From Thermoleophilia bacterium (GTDB lineage: Bacteria > Actinomycetota > Thermoleophilia > BMS3ABIN01), in NCBI GenBank assembly GCA_014874175.1, contig JACWAD010000048.1:61222-125221 (forward strand): a DNA stretch of 64,000 bases. Direction: 5' to 3'. Below, one piece after another: positions 12,751 through 64,000 of the stretch. The translations under genes were made by a program, and so were the position numbers. Under the pieces are notes generated by a model, which saw nothing but the letters and a program-made list of their open reading frames with translations, was not told the origin of the DNA and made no database searches. How positions within the stretch are numbered: the first letter of the stretch is position 1; each line of letters starts with the position of its first letter.

Positions 12751-14445
12751 TCAGGATGAGAACTTTACCCGGCAGTAATTGTCGTACGTGGAAAGGTCGT
12801 ATACCCTGTCGCCGGCATCCGAAAACTTAAGCACAGCCTTCGGGATCGTGCCGCCATGCATAACAAGGTAGCGGAAACCGTCCGCGCAAAGGCTGTCGTA
12901 GTTCCCGGCGCGGTACTCTGCGAAAGTGGCGGCGTCTTTTTTAACAACGCTTAGCGGACGGCGGGATATATATCCCCCATACACGGGGCGGTCATATGTC
13001 ATTTGCTGATAAAGCATCATCAACCAGAGGGGCCTTTGGCCGCCTTCGTACGTGTCGTCAAACACGGCCCCCTTGCCGGGGATGGCCTTCAAGGCAAGAG
13101 CGTAGGCTGAAGTTCGCGGTTTAGTGGTTTGGAATTGCTGGGCCGGCAGGTATTCCAGGAAGATCAACAAAGCCAGGCATCCCAGGGCCGCCGCAGCCAG
13201 GCGCCTGTTTTTCACGCCCGCCAATATTCTGGCCAGCGCCAAGGCCGAGATAACCGCGGCCGCCAGCACCACGATGACAAACATCCTGTTCGGCATTGCG
13301 GCGACGGAGAGCAGGGGGACAAGTTTTTGCAGCAGCAGGTAAGGCATGGCTACGTGCAGGTTTTTGTTGCCGACATGCAGCCAGGGTCCGAGGCTAAGCA
13401 GCCAGAAGACGACAAATACAAGCAGCCATCCATCCAGGAAGCGATTCCTGAGGCTCTTCCACCAGGATATCGCAAACGCTATCAGCGCCAGCACCGTGAG
13501 ACCGAGAAAGCTTTCGCCCACTCCTTCTCCGATCGCAAGCCCCTGGCCATGCCAGTCCTTGAGAAAGCCCGGCATCAGCGGCCCCAGCAGCTCTGTTGAG
13601 AACTTGACCGGATCGTGATTATCCTGGAAGGGATCGGCCTGGTTTGTTTTTATGAATGCAATTACAAATGGGCCAGTTGTCAAAATCATGATCAGAAAGA
13701 AAACGGCCAGCGACCGCAAGCTGGCGCCGCCGGCAAAGCGGCGCAGGCCGGCTTTTGCCGCCAGCACGATCAGGAAGAGGAGGCCGGCAACAGCAGCGTA
13801 GAGGAAGTAATAAAGCTCGGTGTAGAAGGTTAGCGTCAGGAAAACGGCGGCGGCGGCGCCAAGGCGGATGCTGGGCCGCGTCAACAATTTGTGCCAGAAA
13901 AGCAGAAACAGGGGCAGCCACTCCAGGGAATTAAGGTTGATATGGCTGCCAATATGAAGCATCTGGTAGCCGGAAAAGGCGTAAATAAAACCGGCGATGA
14001 TGCTGGGCCAGTATGAGCTGCAGAAATAGAAGGCGAGCAGGAAAGCACTGAGGCCGGAGGCGACAAAGGCAAAGATCACCAGGGCGTCGTAGGACTGGAA
14101 AGGCGAGAAGAAACTTTCCAGCGCCGCGCCGGCAATGGCGTTGGTGGGGCTAAGAGTATGGCCCAGGAGGGTCGTGCCTTCCGGAAAATGGATCTCCGGG
14201 GCGAAATAGGGCCAGCGCAAATGTTCGATTGACTGGCGCATGTGCCAGATATTCCACAGGTTCTGGACGCCGTCGCCTTCATCGCCGTAAAAATGGCTGC
14301 CAAACTGCGTGATCGCGGGGAAAGTGAGCAGGCAAAAGCAGACAAAGTAGATCAGCAGAGGAATAATGCCGAACCTGACCAGCCGCGGGCCGGAGGTGGA
14401 ATTCACGCCCCGCAGCACTTTTTGAATTTCCTGCCGGAGCCGCAC
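12751..14445 (-). CDS. Large polytopic membrane protein, GT-C superfamily glycosyltransferase-like (PMT/ArnT/YfhO-like)
   Basis: 564 aa, >10 [20 protein letters not shown] acidic loop motif near N-terminus, soluble C-terminal domain; annotated start overlaps secA stop by 43 nt so start uncertain. Confidence 0.5.
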
Positions 14446-26670: not shown

Positions 26671-27426
26671 TCAGTTGCCGGAGATTTTCCTTCTGATCAA
26701 GGCTCCGCTGCGGGCTGCCGCGATGCGGGCGCCGTTTGCCTTCAAGTGATAGCGAAGTCTGCTTAGATAGTAGAGAAAGCCCCGTCGTGGCTCCGGGGCC
26801 GGCATCTTCGCCTGGTTATAAACCGTGCCGCGGTCGCGGGCGAAACAGGGAGAAGAGCAAAACCGCTTCAGCGGCTTCAGCCCCGGGGCTGCGCTTGCCC
26901 GCCGGATCTGGTTCATGCCCGCCTGCGCCTGCGGCAAAATCACTACGTCGATCAGCCGCCTTAGCTCACCGTCGCTTTTCCGGGTATGAGAATTTATGCG
27001 CCCGAATTGATTTAACGCCGCAAGCCAGATTTTACGGGAGTTCTCATCCGAGCAGAAGAAAAAATCAGCCATTAGGGCAGACTCCATTGCGGCTCCGGGA
27101 AGCTCCCGTTGCCGGAGGGAGGCAGAAGCAGCTCCCAGATCGACCGCAACCGGCGCGCCCGTGTTTATGATGAAAGGATGAGCTTTAATAACATCAGGAT
27201 CACAAACAACTGCATCCGAATCGCGAGCGATCATGCCAATGTTGCGGCGATTGTAGAAAACAACGGCAAAACCCGCATGAGACAGGCCGGTAAGCTCTGG
27301 CACTGCCAGGATTATATCTGCCACCCGGCTCAGCAACTCGGCCAGGCGCCAGCTACGGTTTGCGAGGTCGCTTTCCGGGACTGCCGTGCCGCTGATTACA
27401 AGCACTCTGTTCCTCCCTTTTTTCAT
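26671..27426 (-). CDS. Hypothetical protein; weak resemblance to C-terminal half of GT-B (GT4) glycosyltransferases, lacks N-terminal half
   Basis: 251 aa ORF, no competing gene; KAHPFIINTGAPVAVDLGAASASL resembles E-x7-E region; low confidence. Confidence 0.35.
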   Translation of the reverse strand: MKKGRNRVLVISGTAVPESDLANRSWRLAELLSRVADIILAVPELTGLSHAGFAVVFYNRRNIGMIARDSDAVVCDPDVIKAHPFIINTGAPVAVDLGAASASLRQRELPGAAMESALMADFFFCSDENSRKIWLAALNQFGRINSHTRKSDGELRRLIDVVILPQAQAGMNQIRRASAAPGLKPLKRFCSSPCFARDRGTVYNQAKMPAPEPRRGFLYYLSRLRYHLKANGARIAAARSGALIRRKISGN

Positions 27427-27672: not shown

Positions 27673-27954
27673 ATGGTTGCCAAAACAGATACGGAAAAAG
27701 TGATTAACAGGCTTCGCCGGGTTGAAGGCCAGGTTCGCGGGCTGCAAAGGATGATCTCCGAGAGCAAGCCGTGTGAAGACGTACTCACCCAGCTGGCTGC
27801 CACCAGGGCTGCGCTTGACCGGGTCGGGGTTTTTCTGATCAGCAACCGGATGAAAGAATGCCTGCGAAACAGCACTGAAGAGATGGGCCTGGACGATATT
27901 GCAGTCGAAGAGGCCTTCGAGGTTTTTATGAAATATATTCAGCATGTAAAGTAA
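27673..27954 (+). CDS. csoR: CsoR/RcnR/FrmR-family metal-sensing transcriptional repressor
   Basis: INRLRRVEGQVRGLQRMISESKPCEDVLTQLAATRAALDRV - DUF156 core; second ligand position is N not H (LISNRMKEC). Confidence 0.8.
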   Translation: MVAKTDTEKVINRLRRVEGQVRGLQRMISESKPCEDVLTQLAATRAALDRVGVFLISNRMKECLRNSTEEMGLDDIAVEEAFEVFMKYIQHVK

Positions 27955-27996: not shown

Positions 27997-28019
27997 GCCG
28001 CCGCGAGCGGCCTTTTTTT
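27997..28019 (+). terminator. Rho-independent terminator after csoR
   Basis: GCCGC-cgcga-GCGGC followed by CTTTTTTTG; a second weaker hairpin+T6 at 27971-27996. Confidence 0.7.
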
Positions 28020-28292
28020 GTCCTGGTTTTCAAGCAAGCCCGTTTTCGTAATTCGCCGTCCGGCGCCGCGCAACCGGCGGCAGAACATATGCAAACCCAG
28101 GCAAGCCTCATTCCTGAACGAGTTGGATGACCAGTTTTCAGAAAGAGCAGCGGTCCGCCGGCTCATAATCCAAGCAAAGAAAAGGCGAAGCAGGCTGCAA
28201 GACCAAGGGCAACTGTGCTATGATTCGTGACTGTCAAACTTGCATTTGCCCGCTGGCCCCGGCAGGCCTCCTAAAGGCAGCAAACCCTCCAG

Positions 28293-30299
28293 ATGCCACG
28301 TCGGCGAAAATACAAAAGGCGCAGAAAAAGACAATCTTTACGGACAATTGGGATTGCCGTTTTTGCTGCCGGGCTGTTGTTTGCTTCGCTGATTGGAATT
28401 CAAACGGTTAAGGCTGTCGTCCACGACCTGCCCAAGCTGGACCAGGAGAATTACCTTGACCTGGGACAGACCTCCATGATTTACGCCGCCGACGGCAGCC
28501 TGCTTGCCGAGATTCACGGCAATGAAAACCGCACTGTCGTCCCCCTGTCTTCCATTCCTGCTTACCTGAAAGAGGCAACCATTGCTATTGAAGACGAGCG
28601 TTTTTACCAGCACGGCGGAGTCGATTATGAGGCTATCCTGCGCGCCCTGGCGACGGATATCAAAGAAGGACGTCTGGCGGAAGGCGGTAGTACTATAACT
28701 CAACAACTTGTCAAACAAGTTTACATTTCTGATGAACATTCATTTACGCGCAAGATTGTGGAGGCTGTGCTGGCCACTGAACTGGAACAAATCACCACCA
28801 AGGACGCGATCCTGGAGCGGTACCTGAACACGGTTTATTACGGCGCCAACGCCTATGGCGTTGAAGCCGCTGCCAGAACTTATTTCGGCAAGAGCGTGAC
28901 CCAGCTGGACCTGTCCGAGTGCGCAACCCTGGCAGGCCTGCCACAGGCCCCCTCGGCTTTTTCGCCCAAGTATGATCTTAAGGCTGCGACCGCCCGCCGC
29001 AACGCCGTCCTGCAGAAGATGGCCGATCTGGGCAACATAAGGCAAACAGAAGCTCATTACGCGGCCTCCATCCCCATTGACGTCACCAGGTCCGGCACCA
29101 CGCCCACTGCCGATTCTTACTTTGTCGAGTATGTCAAACAACAGTTAATTGACAAGTACGGTGACAAGAAAGTCATGGAGGGCGGGCTGCGTGTGTATAC
29201 AACCATCGACCCCCGCCTGCAGAGCGCCGGCCAGGAGGCGATTAACAACACGCTCGGTGAAGATGGCGACCCGGCTGCCGCCCTCGTCTCGATTGACCCC
29301 GGCAATGGTTATATCAAGGCAATGGTTTCCAGTCAGGATTTTAAGAAGTCCCAGTTTAATCTTGCCGTGCAGGGACTGCGGCAGCCAGGCTCATGTTTTA
29401 AGCCATTTGTTCTTGCAGCCGCAGTGAAAGAAGGCGTCGACCCCAAAAAGACTTATTACATGTCAAAGGAAATTGACATTCCGCTTCCCGGCGGCGGCCC
29501 TCCCTGGCATGTAGCCACCTGGGATCACAAGTACTATGGCGTCTCCAACCTGGAAGATGCGATGATACGATCGGATAACACTGTTTATGCTCAGTTGATA
29601 ATGGATATTGGGCCCGACAAGGTTCGCGACACTGCCGAAAAGCTGGGGATAAAAAGCTATATTCCGTCGAATCCATCTATCGCGCTGGGCGGCCTCGATC
29701 AGGGCGTTTCGCCGCTGGACATGGCTTCCGCCTACGCGACACTGGCCGCAGACGGCTCGTATAATAAACCGATAGCCATCACCAAGGTAGAGTTGCCGGG
29801 CGGCACAGTTGACTACCAGGCCAGCCCGCAGCCGAAGCGGGTGATCAGTGACGCGGTCGCCTATACCGTGACCCAGGTAATGGCCGAGGACATCAAGCGC
29901 GGCACCTCTTCCAGAGCCAAGATCAACAGGCCTGCCGCCGGGAAGACGGGATCGACGGAAAATCTCCAGGATGCCTGGTTTGTTGGCTATACGCCTGATT
30001 TTTCCACGTCAGTTTGGATCGGTTATCCTGACAAGCAAATCCCGATGACGGACGTGCATGGAACCAGCGTCTGGGGAAGCGGATTCCCGGTTGACATCTG
30101 GAAGAGTTTTATGATTGCCGCCGAGCAGGGCCTGCCCATTAAGGATTTCCTCAAGCCAAAGGATCAGGTCGCATTTAAAAAACTGTCCGGCCAGTACGTG
30201 CTTTTTTCTGGAGGCGAGAATCCCAGCGCCCGGCAGGATGCATACGGTCCCTCAGGGCGGACGACGCCTGAGGCAGCCGCCCCCGGCCAGAATCGATGA
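28293..30299 (+). CDS. Class A penicillin-binding protein (PBP1A, transglycosylase + transpeptidase)
   Basis: 668 aa; GT51 motif IAIEDERFYQHGGVD, transpeptidase SxxK/SxN/KTG-like motifs, N-terminal TM. Confidence 0.9.
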   Translation: MPRRRKYKRRRKRQSLRTIGIAVFAAGLLFASLIGIQTVKAVVHDLPKLDQENYLDLGQTSMIYAADGSLLAEIHGNENRTVVPLSSIPAYLKEATIAIEDERFYQHGGVDYEAILRALATDIKEGRLAEGGSTITQQLVKQVYISDEHSFTRKIVEAVLATELEQITTKDAILERYLNTVYYGANAYGVEAAARTYFGKSVTQLDLSECATLAGLPQAPSAFSPKYDLKAATARRNAVLQKMADLGNIRQTEAHYAASIPIDVTRSGTTPTADSYFVEYVKQQLIDKYGDKKVMEGGLRVYTTIDPRLQSAGQEAINNTLGEDGDPAAALVSIDPGNGYIKAMVSSQDFKKSQFNLAVQGLRQPGSCFKPFVLAAAVKEGVDPKKTYYMSKEIDIPLPGGGPPWHVATWDHKYYGVSNLEDAMIRSDNTVYAQLIMDIGPDKVRDTAEKLGIKSYIPSNPSIALGGLDQGVSPLDMASAYATLAADGSYNKPIAITKVELPGGTVDYQASPQPKRVISDAVAYTVTQVMAEDIKRGTSSRAKINRPAAGKTGSTENLQDAWFVGYTPDFSTSVWIGYPDKQIPMTDVHGTSVWGSGFPVDIWKSFMIAAEQGLPIKDFLKPKDQVAFKKLSGQYVLFSGGENPSARQDAYGPSGRTTPEAAAPGQNR

Positions 30300-30339
30300 A
30301 AGGCAAATGTGGGTAAGGCCCGACAGCCGTGCAGCCGGC

Positions 30340-30660
30340 TTAACGGTTCAGTGACAGGATGGAACGGTTCCCCGCCAGGGCAAGAAAAACTTCCTGAGTT
30401 AGCGGGGCCAGGATCAACCCGTGACTGCCCGTCTCGAGTGAAAGAATCCGGGGCGGGCCGCCAAGCTCTGCAGCCAGGGCCCCCGTGGCGGCCAGGGCCG
30501 AGGCGGAGTGAGCGGCCAGGGCTTCCATGTCGATGCCGCTGCCTGCTGAAACCACCAGCAGGCCGTCCCACGATACCAGTGCCGCCGCAGTGACAGATTC
30601 AATGTCGAGGTAGGGAGTAATAATTTCCGCCAATGAACGTTGTTTTTCCATGCCTGCCAT
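30340..30660 (-). CDS. Roadblock/LC7 (MglB-like) domain protein, translationally coupled to parB
   Basis: 106 aa; VTAAALVSWDGLLVVSAG ... ILSLETGSHGLILAPL pattern of Roadblock/LC7 fold; ATG overlaps parB TAA (TAATG). Confidence 0.7.
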   Translation of the reverse strand: MAGMEKQRSLAEIITPYLDIESVTAAALVSWDGLLVVSAGSGIDMEALAAHSASALAATGALAAELGGPPRILSLETGSHGLILAPLTQEVFLALAGNRSILSLNR

Positions 30661-31552
30661 TAACGGTTGTCTTCAAGAGAATCGATTATGCGGCGCAGTT
30701 CTTCATTGTTTCTGAACTCCATCTCAATGCGGCCCCCTCTGGCGCTCCAGCGGACTTTGACTGGCAGGCGAAAAGCTGAATAGAGAGCATCGGTTGCCTC
30801 ATCCATCAGTTCCTGGCCGGCAGGTATCGGGCTCGCCTCCCTGGCAGACTTGCGCTGCGGGGCCTCGCGTTTTACCCGTGCTTCCAGCTGCCGCACGGAC
30901 ATGTTGGCGGCAGCGGCTTTCGCAGCCAGGCGGCGCTGCCGGAGGCGATCCGGCACTGAAAGGAGGGCGCGCCCGTGACCTTCAGACAATCTGCCATGCT
31001 CGATAAGGGTTTGCACATCGTCCGGGAGGTCAAGCAACCGCAGGGTATTGGCTACTGCTGAGCGGCTGCGGCCCAGCTTGGCGGCCAGCTCTTCCTGCGT
31101 GATGCCGAAATCTTCCTGCAGGTTTGCGTAAGCCCGCGCCGCATCAATCGGATTTAAATCTTCCCGGCTCAGGTTTTCAATCAGGGCCAATTCCACGGAT
31201 TCGGCGTCGCCTGCGTCCCTGATCACGGCCGGGACTGTTTTCAGGCCGGCCATGCGCGCGGCGCGCCAGCGCCTCTCGCCGGCGATAATCTCAAAACTGC
31301 CGCCGGCGCGGCGCACGACTACCGGCTGCACAATGCCTACAGCCTTGATTGACGCCGCTAGTTCGGCGAGAGCCTCATCGCCGAAAGTCCGGCGCGGCTG
31401 CCCCGGATTTGAAACTATTTTATCGACAGCGATTTCCTGATATTGACCTGCAAGTTGCAAGTTGCCATTGTGGTTATTCACTTGTTGATTTTTATTCTGA
31501 TTTGTGCCAATCAAGGCCTCAAGTCCCCGGCCCAATCCCTTGCTGCTATTCA
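30660..31552 (-). CDS. parB: Chromosome partitioning protein ParB (Spo0J)
   Basis: GLGRGLEALI, ParB box IIAGERRWRAA, HTH ITQEELAAKLGRSRSAVANTLRLL; GTG start at 31552 after GGAGGTG, overlapping parA stop. Confidence 0.9.
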
Positions 31553-32337
31553 CGCTCGACCACCTCCGTGGCGAGATCGAAGTAAGCATCCGAACCGGCA
31601 CAGGTGGGATCATACCGCGATATCGGCTTGCCGTGGCTCGGAGCTTCGCTTAACCTGACATTGCGGGGAATGACTGTCTTGTAAATTAACTGCGGAAAAT
31701 GGGAACGGACCTGACTTACCACCTGGCTGGACAGATTGGTGCGGGCATCAAACATGGTCATCAGCAGGCCGGCGATCCTGAGGTTCGGGTTAAAGTTGCT
31801 CTGAACTGCAGATACAGTGGAAAGCAACTGTCCCAGTCCTTCCAAGGCGTAATATTCGCATTGGACCGGGATAATGATTTTGTCGGCTGCCACAAGGCCA
31901 TTCAGCGTGAGCAGGCTGAGAGAAGGCGGACAATCGATAAAGAGGTAATCAAAATCAGAAGAAATGCCCATGAGCGCCTTTGCTACGACAAATTCACGGT
32001 CTTCGCGGAGGGGAAGCTCAACCTCGGCGCCGGCGAGATGAGGCGTTGACGGGACCAGGAACAAGTGGGGCACTTGGGTGCCAATGATTGCTGATTCCAC
32101 GGGGGCGCCGACAGAGATGACATCATAGACAGTACGTGCGGTGCTTTCATGTATGCCTAGGCCGTGTGTTGCATTGCACTGAGCGTCGAGGTCGATGAGC
32201 AAAACGGTCGCACCTGCCTCGGCAAGACAAACGGCGGTGTTAATACAGGTTGTTGTCTTGCCTACGCCGCCTTTTTGGTTGGCAACTGCGTAGGTTTTAC
32301 CTAGACCCGCCCTCTCCCGAAATGAATTCGCCTGCAC
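31546..32337 (-). CDS. parA: Chromosome partitioning ATPase ParA (Soj)
   Basis: Deviant Walker A ANQKGGVGKTTT; 263 aa. Confidence 0.92.
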   Translation of the reverse strand: MQANSFRERAGLGKTYAVANQKGGVGKTTTCINTAVCLAEAGATVLLIDLDAQCNATHGLGIHESTARTVYDVISVGAPVESAIIGTQVPHLFLVPSTPHLAGAEVELPLREDREFVVAKALMGISSDFDYLFIDCPPSLSLLTLNGLVAADKIIIPVQCEYYALEGLGQLLSTVSAVQSNFNPNLRIAGLLMTMFDARTNLSSQVVSQVRSHFPQLIYKTVIPRNVRLSEAPSHGKPISRYDPTCAGSDAYFDLATEVVERE

Positions 32338-37774: not shown

Positions 37775-37802
37775 TTTGGACATTGGGCTTTGGATATTGG
37801 GC
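37775..37802. repeat. Tandem 14-nt direct repeat TTTGGAYATTGGGC x2 in mnmE/yyaL divergent promoter region
   Basis: Read directly: TTTGGACATTGGGC TTTGGATATTGGGC. Confidence 0.4.
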
Positions 37803-38061
37803 AAAAACCAAACCCATTTTTACTGAACATATAGTTATTCGGGAGAGGCTTGCCCTGAGTTTGCCTGTTTCCCCTTTCAAACAGGATGGTCAGCCTGGAT
37901 GTCGTTTGGCGCCTGGATTGTTTAAAATGTCCGGGTTGCGGCAAGCGAATGCTGGAGATCCGGCGATTATGAAAAAAGCGATGCTCTGCTTCAGCCTCCG
38001 GCGGCCGGATCTCGACAGCCCTTCGAGTTACTATATTTCTCAGGCTTCCCGGGAGAGTTGG

Positions 38062-39909
38062 ATGACTGGTAAAGGAAAGGAAAAGTTTATTTTCTCGCCC
38101 CGCCCAAACCAGGCGGCGCAAATCAGGTGGCGAGGGTGGAGCAGCCAGGCGCTGCGGCTGTCTCGCGAGCAGGGAAAACCAATCTTGCTGGTGATATCGG
38201 CCTCGTGGTGCCACTGGTGCCATGTTATGGACGAAACCTGTTTTTCTGACCCGGAGGTGATACAGTTGATCAACAGCAGATTCATACCCGTGCGTGTTGA
38301 CAGCGGTAGGAGGCCTGATATTAACAGCCGCTACAATCAGAGCGGCTGGCCAACGCTGGCATTTCTTACCCATGAAGGCGAGGTAGTTGCGAGCACCACG
38401 TATATTCCAACTGAGCAATTGAAGCGGCTGTTGACTGATATTGCCGATCTTTGCGGATCCAGCGCCAACAAGGTTAAGGAGGCCGTCCGGGAGATCCAGC
38501 GCCTGCGCCAGGAGCGCCCGCAGGCGCGGCCGGAGGAGCCGGGCCCGCAAGTCATATCCGACGTGCTCGAGGTTATGCGGCCGGAGGAGCCGGGCCCGCA
38601 AGTCATATCCGACGTGCTCGAGGTTATCGGGGAAAGTTATGACCGGGAATATGGCGGATTTGGCTGGGAGTCAAAATTCCCGTACGCCGACGCACTTGCC
38701 TTCCTGCTGACGACGCTTGCGGACGGCTATTTAGAGGCTGTTGACAATATGTTAAGAACAACGCTTGACGCCATGTCTGCCGGCGGCATGTACGACCGCG
38801 TGGAAGGGGGCTTTTTCCGGTATTCAACTGCAAGGGACTGGTCAGTTCCTCATTATGAAAAAATGCTGGCAGACAACGCCGCCTTGATGGCTGTTTACGC
38901 TAACGCATTTCTTTTAACCGGTGAGGAGGGCTACAAAAGTGTGGCCAAGGACGTCTGCTCTTATTTGCGCGCGGTGCTGCTTGACCGGCAAACGGGCGCT
39001 TTTGCCGGCAGCCAGGATGCGGATGAGCATGAGCATTATTATTCACTTGGCGCCGCAAAGCGGGCGAATAACAAAGCGCCGCGGCTGGACCGCGCGGTTT
39101 ATACGGATCAGAATGCGGCGGCCGCTTCGGCCCTGCTTCGGATGTTCCAGATATTTGACGATCCGGAGTATCGCAGTATGGCCGCAGCAGCGCTTGATTT
39201 TGTCTGGTGGCGGCTCTGGGACAGCGAATCGGGACCAAGCCATTATTATGAAGACGCAAAACCACGCTTAAGCGGGCAACTGGCCGATGCTTCCTCCCTC
39301 CTGTCGGCCTGCATGGATTCTTTCTTATGAGAGCGGCGCCGGCGAACTCTGGCTGGACAGGGCCATCCAGGCCGCGAAATGGCTGCTGGCAAGCCTTGAG
39401 GACAAGGAGAGCGGCGGCTTTTTTGATTGCTATAAGCCATTGGGCAATACCGGACTTCTGTCCGAGCGGGACAAACCAATAACAGAAAACAGCAATGCGG
39501 CCTCTGCCCTTATCCGCCTGGCCCAGTCAACCAGCATGCCAGTTTTTGGCGAGGCAGCGCGCCGGGCGCTGGCTTTTTTTGGCTCTACTTACAAGGGAAA
39601 GGCATAATAGCCGCCGGATATGCGGCTGCTGTACAACGCCTTCTGGAGCCGCCAGTGCGGGTGACGATTGTTGGTCCGGAAAGTTCCAAATCAACCAGGA
39701 TGATGATCGGCGCGGCGCACCGGGCCCGCATCCCCTTCCGTTCAGTGGAAGTGCTTGATCCGCGAACGCATGCCGAGGACCTGGAAGCTTCAGGTTTCGG
39801 ATATGCCGGCGAACCGGTGGCTTACATCTGTATCGGAACAAGCTGCCAGGCACCGGTAACCGACCCTGTTGTTCTCCCGGAACGGCTGGAAGGGAGCCGG
39901 CACCGGTAG
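38062..39909 (+). pseudogene. yyaL: Thioredoxin-domain protein YyaL/DUF255 (SPATA20-like) interrupted by two frameshifts (near 39320 and 39595)
   Basis: Three consecutive ORFs in different frames (38062-39330, 39287-39607, 39655-39909) all matching one family: ASWCHWCHVMDETCF thioredoxin motif, GGFFD..., C-terminal ICIGTSCQAPVTDP. Confidence 0.65.
38527..38628 (+). repeat. Perfect in-frame 51-bp tandem duplication (RPEEPGPQVISDVLEVM/I x2) inside yyaL-like gene
   Basis: Two adjacent 51-nt copies differing at 1 nt. Confidence 0.85.
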
Positions 39910-40121
39910 CCGGTGTTCTTTCTACTACCATAAGGCTCAACTTTAGGCTTATCCTCCTTACGGGCGAATTTTTGCAATTTGCGCAATAAACTTTATTCTC
40001 TGGCTCTTTACCGGTCAGCACCATAGTTATAGCATTCAGAAATGCAGGAAAAAAGTCAAAAGACACGAAATGTTGTATATTCAAATTTATTAAGCCCAAT
40101 ATCTTGTTGACAGCAGGCTAT

Positions 40122-40568
40122 CTTGTGAAGTGCCCATTTTGTGAGTCTCAAGAAACGAAAGTAGTGGATTCCCGCGACAACGAAGTTCGGGATGCTATAC
40201 GGCGGCGGCGGGAGTGCCTTAATTGCGGGCGCCGCTTTACCACATACGAGCGGGTTGAAGAAATCCCCCTGTCTGTAATCAAGCGGGGAGGCGAGCGGGA
40301 AGTATTTTCCCGCTCCAAGCTTCTGGAAGGGTTGATGAGGGCCTGCGAAAAACGCCCCGTTGAGGCCGGCATGCTGGAGAAATTCGTTGACGCAATTGAA
40401 GCTGACTTGCGCAATGAATTCAAGACCGAAGTGCCTTCCGCAGAGATTGGAGAAAGAACTTTGGCGAAATTAAAAAATCAGGACAAGGTCGCATATGTGC
40501 GTTTTGCATCGGTATACCGGCATTTTGAGAACGTGGAAGAGTTTCAGAAGGAGCTCTTGGAATTGTGA
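40122..40568 (+). CDS. nrdR: Transcriptional repressor NrdR
   Basis: GTG start MKCPFCESQETKVVDSRD... zinc ribbon + ATP-cone; supplied ORF starts 18 nt earlier at TTG. Confidence 0.9.
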   Translation, partial: LVKCPFCESQETKVVDSRDNEVRDAIRRRRECLNCGRRFTTYERVEEIPLSVIKRGGEREVFSRSKLLEGLMRACEKRPVEAGMLEKFVDAIEADLRNEFKTEVPSAEIGERTLAKLKNQDKVAYVRFASVYRHFENVEEFQKELLEL

Positions 40569-40676
40569 CATAATCATGATTCCGTGGTGGGGACCCATGG
40601 AAGCAGCCGCGCCGCGCCTTCCGTCCGGCGGGCGGCATATAATATTTCACCGGCGGTAGCTGAAAGGGGAAGAAAA

Positions 40677-42962
40677 ATGTTAGTCAACCAGCGTCAAGGA
40701 GTTGCCGGCAAGGGTCCCCGCGTCTCTGCCCTGCCACTTCAGCCCCAGCTTTCTCCAAACGCGGTAAAAGTACTGGAAAAACGGTATTTGAAGAAGGATG
40801 AGGAAGGCAGGCCCATTGAGACTCCGGCGGAGATGTTCCGGCGCGTGGCGCGCACCATCGCCGGGGCCGATCTGCTTCACAATCCGGATGCTGACGTGGA
40901 GGCCGCCGAGGAGGAATTTTACCGCATGATGACCAGGCTGGAATTTCTTCCCAACTCGCCCACCCTGATGAACGCCGGCCGGGAGCTGGGCCAGCTGTCC
41001 GCCTGTTTTGTACTGCCTGTTGGCGATTCCATGGAAAGCATTTTCACTGCTATCAAGCATACCGCCCTGATTCACAAAAGCGGCGGCGGCACCGGCTTCT
41101 CGTTTTCCCGCATCCGGCCCAGCAAAGATGTGGTGCTGTCAACTAAAGGAGTCTCTAGCGGACCAATCTCTTTTATGACGGTCTTCGATGCCGCCACAGA
41201 GACCATCAAGCAGGGCGGCACCCGCCGCGGCGCCAACATGGGCATTCTGCGTGTGGATCATCCTGACATCCTCGGTTTCATCACGGCCAAGCAAAGCAAT
41301 GACCGTCTTAACAATTTCAATATCTCAGTGGCCCTGACCGAGAATTTTATGGAGGCGGTGGAGCTTGACAGCGAGTATGACCTCATCAACCCGCGCACAG
41401 GCGAGAAAGCAAATACGCTCAAGGCGCGGCGGGTCTTTGAAATGATCGTAAATATGGCCTGGAAAAATGGCGACCCGGGCATCATTTTCATTGACCGGGT
41501 AAACCGCGACAATCCTACACCCCACATAGGTGAGATTGAGAGCACCAATCCCTGCGGCGAGCAGCCTCTGCTGCCTTATGAATCTTGCAATCTGGGCTCG
41601 ATTAACCTCGCCCGGGTAGTTGATTCATCAGGTGAGGTTGACTACGGACATCTGGGCCGTCTCGTGGATAGCGCTGTGCATTTCCTGGACAATGTCATTG
41701 ATGTCAACAAATATCCGCTCGCTGAGATCGAGAAGATGACCAGGGGAAACCGCAAGATCGGCCTGGGACTAATGGGGTTTGCCGACATGCTCATTGAACT
41801 CGGCATTCCCTACAGCTCGGACCAGGCAGTGGAGGTGGCGGAGGAGGTCATGGCTTTTATCCAGGAGGAGGCGCGCAAGAGCTCGGAGCGCCTGGCGCGC
41901 GAACGGGGAGCTTTCCCTAACTTCAGCGGCAGCGTTTTTAGTTCCAATGGCAGGCCCGAAGTGCGCAACGCCACCACTACCACAATTGCTCCCACGGGCA
42001 CGCTCAGCATTATCGCGGGCTGCTCAAGCGGCATTGAGCCCCTGTTTGCCGTTTCCTATATCAGGAACGTGCTTGATAACACGGAAATGGTTGAGGTGCA
42101 TCGCGCTTTTGAACAGGCGGCAAAGGACGGCGGTTTTTACAATGAAGAATTAATGAAAGAGATCGCAAGGAAAGGCAGCATCCAGGATTTGCCTGAGGTT
42201 CCGGACGAAATCAAGTCATTATTTGTGACTGCTCATGACGTTACCCCCGAATGGCACGTTCGCATGCAGGCGGCTTTTCAGAAGTACACTGACAATGCTG
42301 TTTCAAAAACGGTGAATTTTGCCCACGGCGCCACAACTGCAGACGTTGAACAGGTTTACAAACTTGCCTACAGGACCGGTTGCAAGGGGGTCACCATCTA
42401 CAGGGACGGCAGCCGCGAGGTGCAGGTGCTAAATATCGGCGGAGTTAAGGGGAAAGAGGCGGTGGCTGTGCCAGGGCAGGTTAAGCCGCGGCCCCGCCCC
42501 GGTTTTATAACGGGCGGTACCCATAAACTCGCTTCCGGTTGTGGCAACATCTACGTAACCATCAACCAAGATGAGCACGGCTTGTTTGAGGTCTTCTCTT
42601 CCATGGGGCTGGCCGGCGGCTGCAAGGGGGCCCAGTCGGAGGCGATCGCCAGGCTGATATCTCTGGCTCTCAGATCAGGAGTTGCCGTTGATGCGGTGAT
42701 AAAGTCCGTCAAGGGAATTCGCTGTCCGACACCTGGGTTCGGCGAGGGGGTCAAGGTAAATTCTTGCCCGGACGCGATCGCGCAGGCCCTGCTGGCGCAT
42801 TTGAAAAAAATGCCGCATCTGGCAGACGGCGCAGTGGCGGGATTGCCATCATCAGCCGAGTTGGCCCACTGCCCTGAGTGCCCCGAATGCGGCAGCACAG
42901 GCCTCGAGTTTGGTGAAGGGTGTGTTTTTTGCCGTTCCTGTGGATTTTCACGCTGCGGCTAG
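40677..42962 (+). CDS. nrdJ: Adenosylcobalamin-dependent ribonucleoside-diphosphate reductase (class II, NrdJ) with C-terminal zinc ribbon
   Basis: [37 protein letters not shown] active-site region, C-terminal CPECPECGS...CVFCRSCG; ATG at 40677 after AAAGGGGA. Confidence 0.9.
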
Positions 42963-42973
42963 AACAAGCCCGG

Positions 42974-43016
42974 TTTAACCAGGAGTTTAACCAGGAGTTT
43001 AGCTATGATTATAGCT
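42974..43016. repeat. 12-nt tandem repeat TTTAACCAGGAG x2.3 followed by 16-bp palindrome AGCTATGATTATAGCT downstream of nrdJ
   Basis: Read directly from sequence. Confidence 0.5.
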
Positions 43017-43131
43017 GGGATTTAGCCGGGCTTTGGCTCTAAAATTGCAGACGGCCCTTACCGCTCTCGAAGGAAAAGGGTTCAGAAGAGAGTAATAAGA
43101 AGTTGTTTAGCTGAACAGGTTTTTTGCTCGA

Positions 43132-50933: not shown

Positions 50934-52649
50934 TCAGAAATTTATCAGCGACTGAAATTTAAGGCCGACCAGCGTAACCAGCTCTCTTAAGTGTGGAGAA
51001 TAGGAAACAACAATGGCCAACGGCGCCAGCGCCGCGACAAACAAGGCGGTCAGTTCTAGCGATAGCCTTCCAAAGCCGGGATCACCGGCTCGCTTGACTT
51101 CTCTTCCGGTTCTGCTATTTTCCAGGGACCAGTTAATCAGGCGCTTCCAGACTTTAGGCAGAATCTCGTTTCCCTTGCTCCAGACCAGCAGGGCAACGGG
51201 AGGTCCAAACACGACCAGCACCCGCAGCGTTTCCTGCACGTCCATGGACAGCGGGGAATGCCACCAGAAGCTGTCAAAAAACATAACTGTGAACGAAAAC
51301 AGCAGCGCGCACTTATAGATAAGACGCCAGGGCCTGAGAGCGATCAGACCCAGCGCCATCGTCAGATACCATGGCTGGAACCACAGCAGGGCCAGCGGCA
51401 TTAAAAAGGCTATGCCGGCGGACGCCGAAACAAGAGCGGCCCTGTTCTTGACGCCAAGGGCATGCCAGGTCAAATAAACAACCAGCGCTGCCGCTAGCGC
51501 CAGCTGGACTACTGTGATTGATAGCGGCAGTTGCAACTGTCCCACGGAAACGTCATGAATCAGCTGAGGGATGGTGAAATTGACTTTTTCGCCCACAGCA
51601 GTCAAATAGCTGAAAGTTCCGCGGCCCTCCCACAGGGGGGCGTAACTGGCCAGAATTGTTGCAACAGCAACTGCAAGAGACCCCGCCCCCGTCAACAGAC
51701 GCCATTTCAGCTTGGCCTGCTTGCGAATTGACAGAGCGATGTAAACCAGCAGGATCGGCAGAGCAATGAACTTGACCAGAACCGCCAGCGTAATAAAAAA
51801 AGCACCCAGGATCAGGCGCCGGTTGAGATAGCACAAGATGCCGGCCAGCACAAAAACAAGCATGAAGATGTCATTGTGGGCGCTCGCCACCACCAGAGCC
51901 AGGATGAATGGGTTCCAGCCATAAAAAAGCATTGCCTTTTTCTCCAGCCCGGGGCGCAGGCGGGCGGCAATGCTTCCGATGAGGATCACGTTGGCAAGAT
52001 CAAGGCAGACGAAGAAGCTTTTGAAGACAAGGAAATTTGCTCCAATGCCGTTGCCGGCGATTACCGCCAGGAACCCGGCGGCGTAAACGTGGAGCGGCCC
52101 GTAAACAGAGCCGGTTCCCACCCAGCCGCCCATGTTAAAGAAAGGATCGTGAGGAAAATATGTGGCCGGCACGACCAGCGGGTTCTCGCCGTAGATGGCG
52201 AATATGCGTCCGTGGCGAATGTAGTCAAAAAGATCGGTTGACAAAAGGAACGGCGTTAACAGCATCACCAGGTGGAAGAGAACCGTCATGCCGAAGATAT
52301 AGTTTGTCATGCTGTCGCGCCGCCAGGGATGGAGAGGCGCCGGCGCCGACGGCAGGACAGCTCCCGAACGGAGATTGCTTACCGCTCTTAGGGCAATGAA
52401 ATACAAGCCAAACAGGAGCAGGGCATTGATGCAAATTAATATGTATAACAGGTAATAGTCTGTTAACCCTAAACCGCCATCCGGCAGGGCCAGATAGGGA
52501 GGAAAGTGGCTGAAGTCAGCCCGGGGGATAAACAGGGGCAGGATGGCAAACAGCAAATATGAAAACAGGCAGGCGCCCCCCGCCGTCATGATCATGACCC
52601 GGGGGCTGGCCAGTTTTCCGTTGTTGATTTTATCGAGCCTTTGCCACAT
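50934..52649 (-). CDS. GT-C superfamily membrane glycosyltransferase (DUF2029/GT87-like mannosyltransferase candidate)
   Basis: 571 aa, >11 TM, DLFDYIRHGRIFAIYGENPLVVP loop motif near N-terminus; operon with MctB-like and deacetylase. Confidence 0.5.
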   Translation of the reverse strand: MWQRLDKINNGKLASPRVMIMTAGGACLFSYLLFAILPLFIPRADFSHFPPYLALPDGGLGLTDYYLLYILICINALLLFGLYFIALRAVSNLRSGAVLPSAPAPLHPWRRDSMTNYIFGMTVLFHLVMLLTPFLLSTDLFDYIRHGRIFAIYGENPLVVPATYFPHDPFFNMGGWVGTGSVYGPLHVYAAGFLAVIAGNGIGANFLVFKSFFVCLDLANVILIGSIAARLRPGLEKKAMLFYGWNPFILALVVASAHNDIFMLVFVLAGILCYLNRRLILGAFFITLAVLVKFIALPILLVYIALSIRKQAKLKWRLLTGAGSLAVAVATILASYAPLWEGRGTFSYLTAVGEKVNFTIPQLIHDVSVGQLQLPLSITVVQLALAAALVVYLTWHALGVKNRAALVSASAGIAFLMPLALLWFQPWYLTMALGLIALRPWRLIYKCALLFSFTVMFFDSFWWHSPLSMDVQETLRVLVVFGPPVALLVWSKGNEILPKVWKRLINWSLENSRTGREVKRAGDPGFGRLSLELTALFVAALAPLAIVVSYSPHLRELVTLVGLKFQSLINF

Positions 52650-61675: not shown

Positions 61676-64000
61676 CTAAAGCCCCGGCACGGTCCCCTGC
61701 ACTTCGTTGAAATACCCGCTCCAGAGCACCCGCTGCGAGGCCAGAATGTTTTGCGGAGTGCCGCCGCCTGGCGAGTGGGCCCGCACTTCGACCAGGCCTC
61801 CCATAACGCCCGGGAAGCGGGGATACGCCATCGAGCCGGGCATCCCCTTTGGCGCCAGGGTGTATGAGCTTCTGAATGCCCCTCCGATATAGACATCTGC
61901 GGTGACGTACTGGTTTTCCGTATTGGCGAGCAGGACCCAGTTCAGTGAGCCTGGGGACAGGTTGTCGTACCAGGTCCAGTCGTACGAGGACGACAGCGCC
62001 GTAGCGCGGTAGCCCGGCACTTCCTCGAACGAAGGGCCCCATATGCTCCTCTGGGAAGCGATCACGCTGGCCGGCTGGCTGCCGCCAACCGCGTCCGACC
62101 AGGCCTGAACTTCCACCGGCCCGCCCATGACGCCCGGGAAAGTGGGAGTCGCTTCCCGGCCGCCGGCAAGCACGCCGGCCGCGCAGCGGCGGGCGTCGCC
62201 ATTCTGGCAGCCGCCGGCGATGCTGATCTGGTAATAGACTGCCGAGGCGCCGGGATTGGCCACCAGCACCCAGTTTTTGGCGCCGGCGGACTGCATGTCG
62301 TACCAGGTCCAGTAATACTGGCTGGAAAGCTCCGAATAGCTCCCGGCCGGGATCCCGCCGACTTCATTGAAGGCGGTGCCGCCGCCGGTCGTCACGCGCT
62401 GGGAAGCGATCACATGCTCCGGGGTTCCGGGGGAGCCCTGTTTCCATGCGTTTACCAGAACGGGACCGCCCATCCGGCCGGGAAAGTCAGGCGTAACCCT
62501 CTGGCCAGGGGCCAGGTTATACGTTCCGGTGATCTGTGTTTTTGACACTACGTCAAAGAAAGATACCTGGGTTGTAACGGCGTCCGTCGTGCTGGGGTTG
62601 CCCACCAGCACCCAGTTTTTAAAGCCGGGACTGAATTCATCGTACCAGGTCCAGTAGTACTGGCTGGAAAGCTTGCTTTCGTCAATCGCCGGCGTCTCCT
62701 CGAGCGAGTTGCCGAAGAGCACCCGCTGGGAGATCACCGCCGGCAGCCCCGACAGCTTGTTGACGGTCAGCGGGCCGCCCATCCTGCCCGGCCAGGTCGT
62801 AAAGGCAGACTTGCCGTGCCTGGAGTCCAGGTAGGCCGCAGCCAGGGGCGGATTGCCCAGCTGGGCCCAGAAGTGGGCCTCGCCGCCGAATTCGCTGGGG
62901 TCGGCGGCCAGCAGCCAGTCCTTCATCCCCGGGCTCTGCTGGTCGTACCAGGTGAAGAAGGAGCGGGTGCCGAAGGTGAGCGTCCAGTCAAGCAGCATAG
63001 GACTTTTCCGGCAGGGATAACATAGCGACCTGAATGCCGCCATCAGCTGCAGCTGGGGATACTTGTTCGGGTCCAGGCCGGAAAGGACGATGGAATTGCC
63101 GCGGAAGCCCCGGGAGTTCCCGGGCAGATCCGAGTCCGGCACCAGGCCGACGCCCGGCTGGAACACCTGCACGTAAAGGTCTTGGCCGTTTAAGGCCGCG
63201 GTTGTCAGCACCTCGCCCCACTTGATGCCGGGATATTTGCCGGTGTAATTTGTGATGTCAATCACCGGCGACAGCGTGTAGCCGGATTGGTCGAAGTCCA
63301 TCCTAATAAACTGGTCTGTTGAAAGCTGCAGGTAATCACACTGGTTATATGTGCCGCAGTTCTGGCCAAACGCAGGGTCTGCATTAACATTCCAGAGTAC
63401 GGGCTGGTCCATCAGGTTGACATGGGTGGTGTTGCTGAACAGGTTGTAGTAGCCGTTTACCTTTACTGTCTTAAAATCGGTCAGTACCCCATAGGGAGTG
63501 TCGTTGGGCGTATTCCAGGCATTTGGATCGTTTAGCTCAACCGAGAGCAGAAAGATGTCGGGGTTCGAGTCCAGGGGGAGGGTGCTGTTGGTCCAGAGCA
63601 GGTTTCCGTTTACCCAGTACTGGGTGTTTCCCTGGCCGTCGTATACCAGCCGCAGATCGTAAAAAACGGGATTTCCCTGGCTGTCCTTCTCTGGCAGATT
63701 TTGATTTGTAAAGCCGCCAACGGACGGAAGCGTCTTCGACTGGTCATGGGCGGGTCCGCCGGCGTCCCACATAGCAACCGCCCTGAGGCCGCCGCCGTTG
63801 CCGTCATCCTGCAGGGCTATCTCCTCGTAACCGCTCTCGCCGTCGTAGATGGTGACGCCGCCAAAGCACGTGGTGGTTTGCGGCCGACTCGGATCAGGCC
63901 GGGTGTTGACCTGGGTTTCGACGTCGATCGGTGTGTCCTTATTGAAGGCCTGCTTTGACTCGATCCCCCAGCTGACGCCCTGCATCTGCAGGTACTCGTC
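61676..64000 (-). CDS. Large secreted-type protein with four C-terminal ~110-aa tandem repeats (WTWYD ... NWVLVANP ... FPGVMGGPVEV ... VIASQRV ... FNEV); N-terminus beyond window
   Basis: 769+ aa ORF, no stop upstream to window edge; internal repeats evident in translation; Asn/Gly/Trp/Tyr-rich. Confidence 0.6.
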   Translation of the reverse strand, partial: DEYLQMQGVSWGIESKQAFNKDTPIDVETQVNTRPDPSRPQTTTCFGGVTIYDGESGYEEIALQDDGNGGGLRAVAMWDAGGPAHDQSKTLPSVGGFTNQNLPEKDSQGNPVFYDLRLVYDGQGNTQYWVNGNLLWTNSTLPLDSNPDIFLLSVELNDPNAWNTPNDTPYGVLTDFKTVKVNGYYNLFSNTTHVNLMDQPVLWNVNADPAFGQNCGTYNQCDYLQLSTDQFIRMDFDQSGYTLSPVIDITNYTGKYPGIKWGEVLTTAALNGQDLYVQVFQPGVGLVPDSDLPGNSRGFRGNSIVLSGLDPNKYPQLQLMAAFRSLCYPCRKSPMLLDWTLTFGTRSFFTWYDQQSPGMKDWLLAADPSEFGGEAHFWAQLGNPPLAAAYLDSRHGKSAFTTWPGRMGGPLTVNKLSGLPAVISQRVLFGNSLEETPAIDESKLSSQYYWTWYDEFSPGFKNWVLVGNPSTTDAVTTQVSFFDVVSKTQITGTYNLAPGQRVTPDFPGRMGGPVLVNAWKQGSPGTPEHVIASQRVTTGGGTAFNEVGGIPAGSYSELSSQYYWTWYDMQSAGAKNWVLVANPGASAVYYQISIAGGCQNGDARRCAAGVLAGGREATPTFPGVMGGPVEVQAWSDAVGGSQPASVIASQRSIWGPSFEEVPGYRATALSSSYDWTWYDNLSPGSLNWVLLANTENQYVTADVYIGGAFRSSYTLAPKGMPGSMAYPRFPGVMGGLVEVRAHSPGGGTPQNILASQRVLWSGYFNEVQGTVPGL

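What the first reader, a model, noticed from the sequence alone, without database searches (positions are those of the whole stretch)
38062..39909. yyaL-like thioredoxin-domain gene broken by two frameshifts and carrying a perfect 51-bp tandem duplication
Three successive ORFs in different frames all belong to the one DUF255/YyaL family: the thioredoxin CHWCH motif, a middle alpha-toroid region, and the C-terminal ...ICIGTSCQAPVTDP end. Frame switches occur at short homopolymer runs (TTCTTTCTT near 39320, GGGAAAGG near 39595). In addition, 38527-38577 is duplicated head-to-tail at 38578-38628 (50/51 nt identical), adding 17 in-frame residues. Either this is a decaying pseudogene at an otherwise well-conserved origin-proximal locus, or the window carries homopolymer sequencing errors. 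The exact duplication argues for a recent real event or an assembly artefact.
Basis: seen in the sequence. Interest (0 to 1): 0.55.

Follow-up and report, generated by a model that had tools for sequence, protein, structure and literature searches.

The report
Recently broken YyaL-family thioredoxin-domain gene
A conserved gene of unknown function (DUF255/YyaL family) has recently been knocked out in this uncultured bacterium by small duplications and a one-base deletion that appear to be real mutations, not sequencing errors; this is an ordinary young pseudogene.

Summary
Window 38062-39909 (+) is one DUF255/YyaL-family gene. Intact orthologs (74% and 71% aa identity) sit at the same place, between mnmE and nrdR-nrdJ, in two related metagenomic contigs.

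Against those orthologs the window carries four lineage-specific indels:
- an unnoticed 6-bp tandem duplication (GAGCAT x2, 39025-39036), adding EH;
- a 4-bp tandem duplication (TTCT x2, 39318-39326), which shifts the frame and gives a TGA at 39328. It is not a homopolymer slip;
- a 1-nt deletion at about 39596-39600, which returns reading to the original frame.

About 45 other genes in the 64 kb show no frameshift. T6, T7 and A6 runs inside the gene are in frame. Two per-run Logan assemblies reproduce the +6, +4 and -1 lesions without a gap. One of them starts exactly at the first non-repeated 31-mer after the duplication, as a k=31 graph would if the reads carry it.

Conserved residues are as well kept as in the intact orthologs, so inactivation is recent. 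Verdict: a real, young pseudogene. Low novelty.

The parts
38062..39909 (+). Whole disrupted DUF255/YyaL-family gene. The conceptual product is about 614 aa with the duplication and about 597 aa without it.
   Evidence: Pfam PF03190. Repaired protein hits 5291 homologs, best intact ones 74% and 71% identical over 99% of length. Codon-level DNA alignment to orthologs L081 and L083.
38051..38064 (+). Shine-Dalgarno-like GGGAGAG, a 4-nt spacer, then the ATG start.
   Evidence: Read directly from the sequence. The start aligns with the ortholog starts.
38062..39330 (+). ORF1: thioredoxin-like domain plus about 8 of the expected 12 barrel helices. 422 codons, ending at a premature TGA (39328-39330).
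   Evidence: AlphaFold2 model with mean pLDDT 90.4.
38206..38223 (+). WCHWCH (CxxC) motif of the thioredoxin domain, intact.
   Evidence: Sequence. These are invariant columns W49 C50 H51 W52 C53 H54 in the 44-sequence alignment.
38526..38576 (+). Copy 1 of the perfect 51-bp tandem duplication.
   Evidence: TRF 100% match. 51/51 identity. Absent from both orthologs and from 116 homologs.
38577..38627 (+). Copy 2 of the 51-bp tandem duplication.
   Evidence: As for copy 1. In addition, Logan contig L085 starts at 38598, the first non-repeated 31-mer after the repeat.
39025..39036 (+). In-frame 6-bp tandem duplication GAGCAT-GAGCAT, adding Glu-His.
   Evidence: DNA alignment. 0 of 116 homologs occupy these columns. 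Present in L085 and L087.
39318..39326 (+). Frameshift 1: 4-bp tandem duplication TTCT-TTCT-T, a +4 insertion relative to the orthologs' GAY GCT TAT GAG.
   Evidence: DNA alignment. Present without gaps in L085 and L087.
39327..39601 (+). Middle segment of the gene (barrel helices), homologous only in the +1 frame. It lies within ORF 39287-39607.
   Evidence: tblastn of the L001 ortholog: residues 410-507 match window 39308-39601 in frame 2 at 62% identity. Alignment.
39595..39601 (+). Frameshift 2: site of the 1-nt deletion. The sequence now reads G GGA AAG, and the frame-2 stop TAA is at 39605-39607.
   Evidence: DNA alignment. Present in L085 and L087.
39598..39909 (+). C-terminal segment, back in the original frame, with the conserved ...ICIGTSCQAPVTDP... 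end and the TAG stop.
   Evidence: Translation. Alignment to orthologs.
39899..39917 (+). Terminator-like hairpin overlapping the stop codon.
   Evidence: Consensus scan only. This is weak evidence.

Best explanation
This is a recently inactivated copy (young pseudogene) of a DUF255/YyaL-family gene. The family has an N-terminal CxxC thioredoxin-like domain followed by an (alpha/alpha)6-barrel. The gene sits at its ancestral locus between mnmE and nrdR-nrdJ in an uncultured bacterium whose best-matching relatives are labelled Thermoleophilia or Actinomycetota (labels from hit titles only).

Shown: in this lineage the gene acquired four indels that no ortholog has. Three are perfect tandem duplications of 51, 6 and 4 bp. 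One is a single-base deletion. The 4-bp duplication shifts the frame and ends translation at TGA 39328-39330, after 422 codons. That leaves the thioredoxin domain and about 8 of the expected 12 barrel helices. The deletion 275 nt downstream happens to restore the frame, but four stop codons lie between the two sites in that frame.

Inferred:
- The duplications arose by replication slippage or unequal pairing.
- The truncated product is non-functional.
- The events are recent, because the two 51-bp copies are identical and conserved residues are undisturbed.
- Several indels accumulated in this one gene because selection on it had been lost.
For: Family and orthology:
- PF03190 at 110 bits.
- Intact orthologs P0001 (588 aa) and P0002 (604 aa) lie in the same gene order, mnmE <- yyaL -> nrdR -> nrdJ -> GGDEF.

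Lesions located base by base against the two orthologs. Both in-frame insertions are absent from 116 homologs.

Not a general error problem:
- 15 neighbouring genes give single-frame, full-length tblastn matches to orthologs.
- 30 further ORFs have full Pfam domain coverage.
- The A6, T6 and T7 runs inside the gene are in frame.

Reproduced from reads by another assembler:
- Logan contig L085 (SRR12217123) equals window 38598-41250 with 0 gaps and 2 mismatches, both in nrdJ.
- L087 (SRR12217122) equals window 38788-40587 at 100% identity.
- Logan drops k-mers seen only once and keeps every 31-mer distinct within an accession (PMC12424806).
- L085 starts exactly at the first non-repeated 31-mer after the duplication. 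The preceding 30-mer has two successors, G and C. A k=31 graph branches there if the reads carry the duplication.

Indel excess:
- The gene has 4 window-specific indels in 594 aligned codons.
- The 15 neighbours have about 3 genuine ones, all in frame, in 5274 codons.
- Post hoc Poisson P is about 5e-4.

Recency:
- The window deviates at 5 of 113 columns that are at least 95% conserved, the same as P0001 (5) and P0002 (5).
- Lineage-unique substitutions are 26 against 20 and 21 in this gene, and 134 against 139 and 146 in the neighbours.
Against: - No raw reads were inspected.
- The Logan runs are probably the same libraries from which the genome was assembled. They rule out assembler or polishing artefacts but not a library-level artefact. 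They also say nothing about whether an intact allele coexists in the population.
- No contig spanning the duplication junction itself was recovered. Support for the duplication is the exact position of a contig end, which is indirect.
- There is no significant excess of amino-acid substitutions, so relaxed constraint rests on the indel count alone, which is small and was tested post hoc.
- Loss of function was not measured.
Confidence: 0.82

Rival explanations
1. Sequencing or assembly artefact. The gene is intact in the organism, and the frameshifts and duplication were introduced by read errors (homopolymer indels), polishing or mis-assembly.
For: - The source appears to be a draft or metagenome-derived contig of 128,599 bp.
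- Frameshift 2 lies next to G3 and A3 runs.
- A perfect tandem duplication can be an assembly error.
Against: - The same +6, +4 and -1 lesions appear without gaps in two per-run k=31 assemblies built only from k-mers seen at least twice.
- The contig end at 38598 matches the branch point the duplication would create.
- Frameshift 1 is a 4-bp duplication, not a homopolymer change.
- A6, T6 and T7 runs in the gene are correct.
- None of about 45 other checked genes is frameshifted.
Confidence: 0.07
2. Population heterogeneity. The assembled sequence is the consensus of a dominant mutant strain, while strains with an intact gene coexist. On this reading the species has not lost the gene.
For: The Logan contigs differ from the window at 2-3 SNPs in nrdJ, so there is microdiversity among the runs. 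Contig breaks at 38788 and 39793 may reflect variants or low coverage.
Against: Only the broken allele was recovered in contigs from two runs. No near-identical intact or duplication-free protein exists in the 5.8-billion-protein collection. Absence of evidence is weak here.
Confidence: 0.2
3. The gene is still functional. Either it works as separately translated fragments (ORF1, ORF2, ORF3), or full-length protein is made through ribosomal recoding: +1 at UUA-UGA (39325-39330) and -1 at the slippery heptamer G GGA AAG (39595-39601).
For: - The 1-nt deletion created a canonical X XXY YYZ heptamer three nucleotides before a stop.
- A predicted hairpin (-14.9 kcal/mol) starts 6-7 nt downstream.
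- A -1 slip there would give YKGKGIIAAGYA, matching the orthologs' YK[EQ]KGI[MI]AA.
- ORF2 has an ATG at 39287.
Against: - The orthologs are single uninterrupted ORFs without either site, so no recoding is conserved.
- The first site offers no good re-pairing for a +1 shift (own knowledge of +1 frameshift sites such as prfB's CUU UGA).
- ORF3's first start (GTG 39655) lies after 19 conserved residues.
- An incomplete (alpha/alpha)6 barrel is unlikely to fold (inference from the model).
Confidence: 0.03

Closest known systems
DUF255 / YyaL / SSP411 (SPATA20-like) thioredoxin-domain proteins (Pfam PF03190 Thioredox_DsbH; closest solved full-length structure PDB 7TKV)
   Same: - N-terminal thioredoxin-like domain with the invariant WCHWCH motif.
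- Following helical barrel with the GGFG, FRY and HYEKML motifs.
- Conserved C-terminal CxGxxC end.
- Same locus as intact orthologs.
   Different: - The reading frame is broken twice.
- There are unique insertions of 17 aa and 2 aa.
- The clade's intact proteins (about 590-600 aa) are shorter than 7TKV (668 aa).
- To my knowledge the biochemical function of the bacterial family is unknown.
Young bacterial pseudogenes created by small frameshifting indels and slippage-type tandem duplications
   Same: - Lineage-specific indels in an otherwise conserved, syntenic gene.
- The insertions are perfect tandem copies of the adjacent sequence.
- Substitutions have not yet accumulated.
   Different: Nothing essential differs. 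Three insertions against one deletion runs against the usual deletion bias, but with four events that carries no weight.
Programmed ribosomal frameshifting genes (prfB +1; dnaX and IS3-family -1)
   Same: A stop codon follows each shift site closely. The second site is a canonical X XXY YYZ heptamer with a downstream hairpin.
   Different: The sites are absent from all orthologs, and two opposite shifts would be needed. The features follow directly from the mutations themselves.

Membership tests
DUF255/YyaL (PF03190) family | N-terminal thioredoxin-like DUF255 domain scoring above Pfam's gathering threshold | tested here: met
   PF03190: 110 bits against a cutoff of 27, profile positions 18-158 of 163.
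DUF255/YyaL (PF03190) family | Conserved CxxC (WCHWCH) motif | tested here: met
   Window 38206-38223. These columns are invariant in the 44-sequence alignment.
DUF255/YyaL (PF03190) family | C-terminal (alpha/alpha)-barrel region and conserved C-terminal end, homologous over the full length | tested here: met
   The repaired protein aligns over 99% of its length with P0001 and P0002. The pieces match orthologs in frames 1, 2 and 1. The AlphaFold2 model of ORF1 shows paired helices after the thioredoxin domain.
DUF255/YyaL (PF03190) family | Single uninterrupted ORF of about 590-690 codons, i.e. a functional member | tested here: not met
   Premature TGA at 39328-39330 after the +4 insertion. 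A second shift lies at about 39596.
DUF255/YyaL (PF03190) family | Orthology: same genomic context as intact relatives | tested here: met
   The order mnmE <- gene -> nrdR -> nrdJ -> GGDEF is found in L081 and L083.
Pseudogene | Disabling lesions relative to intact orthologs | tested here: met
   +4 and -1 indels with four stop codons in the original frame between them.
Pseudogene | Lesions are real in the DNA, not errors | tested here: met
   Two per-run Logan assemblies reproduce them. No other frameshift was found in about 45 genes. Read pile-ups could not be inspected, and the duplication is supported only indirectly, by a contig-end position.
Pseudogene | Signature of relaxed selection | tested here: inconclusive
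   Indel excess: 4 in 594 codons against about 3 in 5274. No excess of changes at conserved sites (5, 5 and 5). No significant rise in unique substitutions.
Pseudogene | Loss of expression or function | not testable with these tools
   Needs transcript, protein or phenotype data.
Programmed ribosomal frameshift gene | Shift site and split frames conserved among orthologs | tested here: not met
   All orthologs are single ORFs, and the sites arise from window-specific indels.

The most novel reading that the evidence does not exclude
The locus is not dead. The 1-nt deletion created a canonical -1 slippery heptamer, G GGA AAG, 3 nt before a stop and 6-7 nt before a hairpin. Slippage there would fuse the middle and C-terminal segments in the ancestral reading. 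Together with ORF1, this could give a two-piece, or with rare +1 slippage a full-length, YyaL protein. Separately, three perfect tandem duplications (4, 6 and 51 bp) within 800 bp, plus a 12-bp one in the next intergenic spacer, might mark an unusual local slippage-prone mutational regime rather than plain decay.
Probability: 0.04. Interest if true: 0.4.

Novelty: already known. Interest (0 to 1): 0.1.

Why it matters
It matters little beyond annotation. The gene should be marked as a pseudogene (frameshifted DUF255/YyaL) and not as three hypothetical proteins.

It shows that this widely conserved protein of unknown function is dispensable in at least one lineage under its natural conditions. 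It is also a tidy example of slippage-type tandem duplications caught soon after they happened.

One practical point: the start position of an independent k=31 contig can serve as indirect read-level evidence for a short tandem duplication.

Tried and rejected
- Exact look-up of the window's own ORF1 product (P0003) on contigs: not on record.
- Exact look-up of MnmE with two alternative starts, to recover a Logan contig reaching the duplication from upstream: none on record.
- Second protein search with the N-terminal 273 aa including the duplication, looking for near-identical fragments or a duplication-free allele: only the window's own protein came back.
- Two exact or gapped DNA scans of JGI metagenome contigs, one with the flank upstream of the duplication and one accepting either allele at frameshift 1: no match.
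- The genome-contig scan did not return the source genome or the two closest relatives.
- Literature search for the run and assembly accessions, to learn the environment: nothing.
- Rfam and tRNA scans of the window: nothing.
- Homopolymer-error hypothesis: rejected. See the rival explanations.
- Conserved programmed frameshifting: rejected, because the orthologs are uninterrupted.
- Split transketolase at 6972-8706 considered as a second frameshift: rejected. The domain boundaries fit the two-gene (N- and C-subunit) transketolases I know from other prokaryotes; that comparison is from memory and was not tested here.

Full report
**What is there**

Window 38062-39909 (+) holds three consecutive ORFs: 38062-39330, 39287-39607 and 39655-39909. 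The first hits Pfam PF03190 (Thioredox_DsbH/DUF255) at 110 bits and carries the WCHWCH motif at 38206-38223.

I joined the three pieces at the points suggested by homology and removed one copy of the duplication. The resulting 597-598 aa protein matched 5291 proteins. The best intact ones, P0001 (588 aa) and P0002 (604 aa), are 74% and 71% identical over 99% of the query. P0003 in that search is the window's own ORF1, from an NCBI contig of 128,599 bp.

P0001 and P0002 lie in contigs with the same gene order as the window: parB-parA-rsmG-mnmG-(GIDA-like)-mnmE on the minus strand, then the YyaL-like gene, nrdR, nrdJ and a GGDEF gene on the plus strand. The three ORFs are therefore one orthologous gene, and it is intact in the nearest relatives.

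**The lesions, base by base**

A DNA alignment of the window gene with the two orthologs shows four window-specific indels.

1. A 51-bp insertion that is a perfect tandem duplication.
   - TRF reports period 51, 2.0 copies and 100% match at 38526-38627.
   - The copies at 38526-38576 and 38577-38627 are identical, and the identity does not extend on either side.
   - It adds RPEEPGPQVISDVLEVM.
2. A 6-bp insertion, GAGCAT-GAGCAT at 39025-39036, adding Glu-His.
3. A 4-bp insertion at 39318-39326.
   - The orthologs read GAY GCT TAT GAG (D A Y E). The window reads GAT TCT T|TCT T|AT GAG, a tandem duplication of TTCT.
   - The frame shifts, and a TGA follows at 39328-39330.
   - This is not a homopolymer event.
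4. A 1-nt deletion in TACAAGG-GAAAGGC at 39590-39603.
   - The orthologs have TAC AAG GAG AAG GGC and TAC AAA CAG AAA GGT.
   - It returns reading to the original frame.
   - Depending on the unknown ancestral codon, it may or may not have occurred in a 4-nt G or A run.

Net change is +4 -1 = +3, so ORF1 and ORF3 share a frame. The 275 nt between the two sites contain four stops in that frame. They are homologous to the family only in the other frame: 62% identity to the L001 ortholog.

In a 117-sequence alignment, none of 116 full-length homologs has residues in the core of the columns of the 17-aa insertion, or in the columns of the 2-aa insertion.

**Real mutations or errors?**

Four lines of evidence bear on this.

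First, errors should be spread across the window.
- Fifteen neighbouring genes between 28.2 and 48.1 kb give single-frame, full-length tblastn matches to their orthologs. Only the YyaL-like gene splits between frames.
- Thirty more ORFs across the window have essentially complete Pfam domain coverage in one frame.
- The two-gene transketolase at 6972-8706 looks like the natural split form.

Second, the longest homopolymers inside the gene are in frame relative to the orthologs: A6 at 38858, T6 at 39419 and T7 at 39574.

Third, other assemblies of the same DNA exist.
- Exact look-up of the window's NrdR product found Logan contigs from three SRA runs.
- L085 (SRR12217123) equals window 38598-41250 with no gap and two mismatches, both in nrdJ.
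- L087 (SRR12217122) equals window 38788-40587 at 100% identity.
- Both contain the +6, +4 and -1 lesions. The same 106-aa and 84-aa ORFs were called on them.
- Logan assembles each accession on its own with 31-mers, discards k-mers seen once, and keeps every 31-mer distinct within an accession (PMC12424806).

Fourth, the position of one contig end supports the duplication.
- Distinct 31-mers mean a 51-bp perfect duplication cannot lie inside one Logan contig.
- The only repeated 31-mers in the whole window start at 38526-38546 and at 38577-38597, 21 distinct 31-mers in all.
- L085 begins at 38598, the first non-repeated 31-mer after them.
- The 30-mer at 38598-38627 occurs twice and is followed once by G and once by C.
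- That is the branch point expected if the reads carry the duplication. A single-copy sequence would give no branch there.

Caveats: these runs are probably the libraries behind the assembly itself. They therefore exclude assembler and polishing artefacts but are not independent biological samples. I saw no reads and no contig crossing the copy-to-copy junction.

**How old, and under what selection?**

At columns where at least 95% of 114 more distant homologs agree (113 columns), the window deviates at 5. The intact P0001 and P0002 also deviate at 5 each. The pattern is the same at other thresholds.

Amino-acid changes unique to one lineage (four-taxon alignments with L001):

| Gene set | Window | L081 | L083 |
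|---|---|---|---|
| YyaL-like gene | 26 | 20 | 21 |
| 15 neighbouring genes | 134 | 139 | 146 |

This is a slight rise that is not significant by my rough estimate.

Window-specific indels do stand out.
- This gene has four in 594 aligned codons.
- The neighbours have five apparent ones in 5274 codons. Two of those fall in upstream ORF extensions and are artefacts. The other three are small and in frame.
- A post hoc Poisson P is about 5e-4, or 3e-3 if all five are counted.

The two 51-bp copies are still identical. Taken together, function was lost very recently. The concentration of indels in one gene fits lost selection better than evenly spread error.

**Consequences for the protein**

An AlphaFold2 model of ORF1, built with 43 homologs, has mean pLDDT 90.4. 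It shows the thioredoxin fold, a helical extension (H117-151) and then paired helices of the barrel.

Confidence falls to 51-63 only over residues 151-180. That stretch is the first copy of the 17-aa duplication (residues 156-172). It is modelled as an extra loop and a short helix between the thioredoxin domain and the first barrel helix. On its own this might be tolerated (inference).

ORF1 ends inside helix 407-421, after about eight barrel helices. An (alpha/alpha)6 barrel, the fold I expect for this family from memory, would have twelve, so the last four helices and the conserved C-terminal region are missing. I infer the product is non-functional.

The closest solved structure by sequence is 7TKV, a 668-aa Thioredox_DsbH-domain protein (E = 1e-37). 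No NCBIfam model reaches its cutoff. As far as I know, the biochemical role of the family is unknown.

**Alternatives**

A functional, recoded gene cannot be strictly excluded.
- The deletion produced G GGA AAG (39595-39601), a canonical -1 slippery heptamer. It lies 3 nt before the frame-2 stop, and a predicted hairpin (-14.9 kcal/mol) starts 6-7 nt downstream.
- A -1 slip there would restore the ancestral reading.
- However, neither site exists in the orthologs, the first site has no plausible +1 mechanism, and two opposite shifts would be needed.
- I treat it as coincidence (about 3%).

Coexistence of intact alleles in the population is untested. It is compatible with the main explanation.

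**Context**

The cumulative GC skew has its minimum near 28-32 kb, beside parAB. This fits an origin-proximal position, but dnaA is not in the window.

The names of the best-matching genomes, Thermoleophilia and Actinomycetota MAGs, suggest an uncultured actinobacterial lineage. That rests on hit labels only.

**Verdict**

It is best explained as a real, very young pseudogene made by slippage-type tandem duplications plus a one-base deletion. It is ordinary biology and mainly an annotation matter. Interest is low.

Noticed in passing
window 42973-43034: Perfect 12-bp tandem repeat GTTTAACCAGGA x2.4 (42973-43001), followed by a related GATTTAGCCGG x2.5 (43007-43034). Both lie in the spacer between nrdJ and the GGDEF gene. 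The 12-mer is absent from loci L081, L083, L001 and L002. This is another recent-looking tandem duplication in this genome.
   Followed up: partly
window 6972-8706 (-): Transketolase is encoded as two adjacent genes. The N-terminal subunit is at 7918-8706. The C-terminal pyrimidine-binding and C domains lie within 6972-8174. The Pfam boundaries fit the natural split form, not a frameshift.
   Followed up: partly
window 27676-27951 (+): A small CsoR-like metal-sensing repressor gene (PF02583 in the orthologous loci) is 96.7% identical in protein to its L083 ortholog. Neighbouring genes are only about 60-90% identical. This could reflect strong constraint or recent exchange.
   Followed up: no
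window ~28000-32000: The cumulative GC skew has its minimum here, next to parA/parB and a divergently transcribed PBP gene. This suggests a nearby replication origin, yet no dnaA or dnaN lies in the window.
   Followed up: no
window 37775-37802: A 14-bp direct repeat, TTTGGACATTGGGC x2 (92% match), lies just upstream of the likely mnmE start (ATG at 37752 on the minus strand), in the divergent mnmE/yyaL spacer. A TATAAT-like box sits directly before that ATG, which hints at a leaderless mnmE.
   Followed up: no
window 12751-14445 (-), 50934-52649 (-), 61676-63985 (-), 26671-27426 (-): Long uninterrupted ORFs of 251-769 aa with no Pfam match at E <= 1e-4.
   Followed up: no
window 40060-40121: The spacer before nrdR contains AT-rich, partly palindromic stretches (ACACGAAATGTTGTAT, CCCAATATCTTGTTG). 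From memory they loosely resemble NrdR boxes. This was judged by eye only, with no scan.
   Followed up: no
P0002 / L083 10001-11815: The intact ortholog P0002 has Arg in place of the otherwise nearly invariant second Cys of the C-terminal CIGxSC motif.
   Followed up: no
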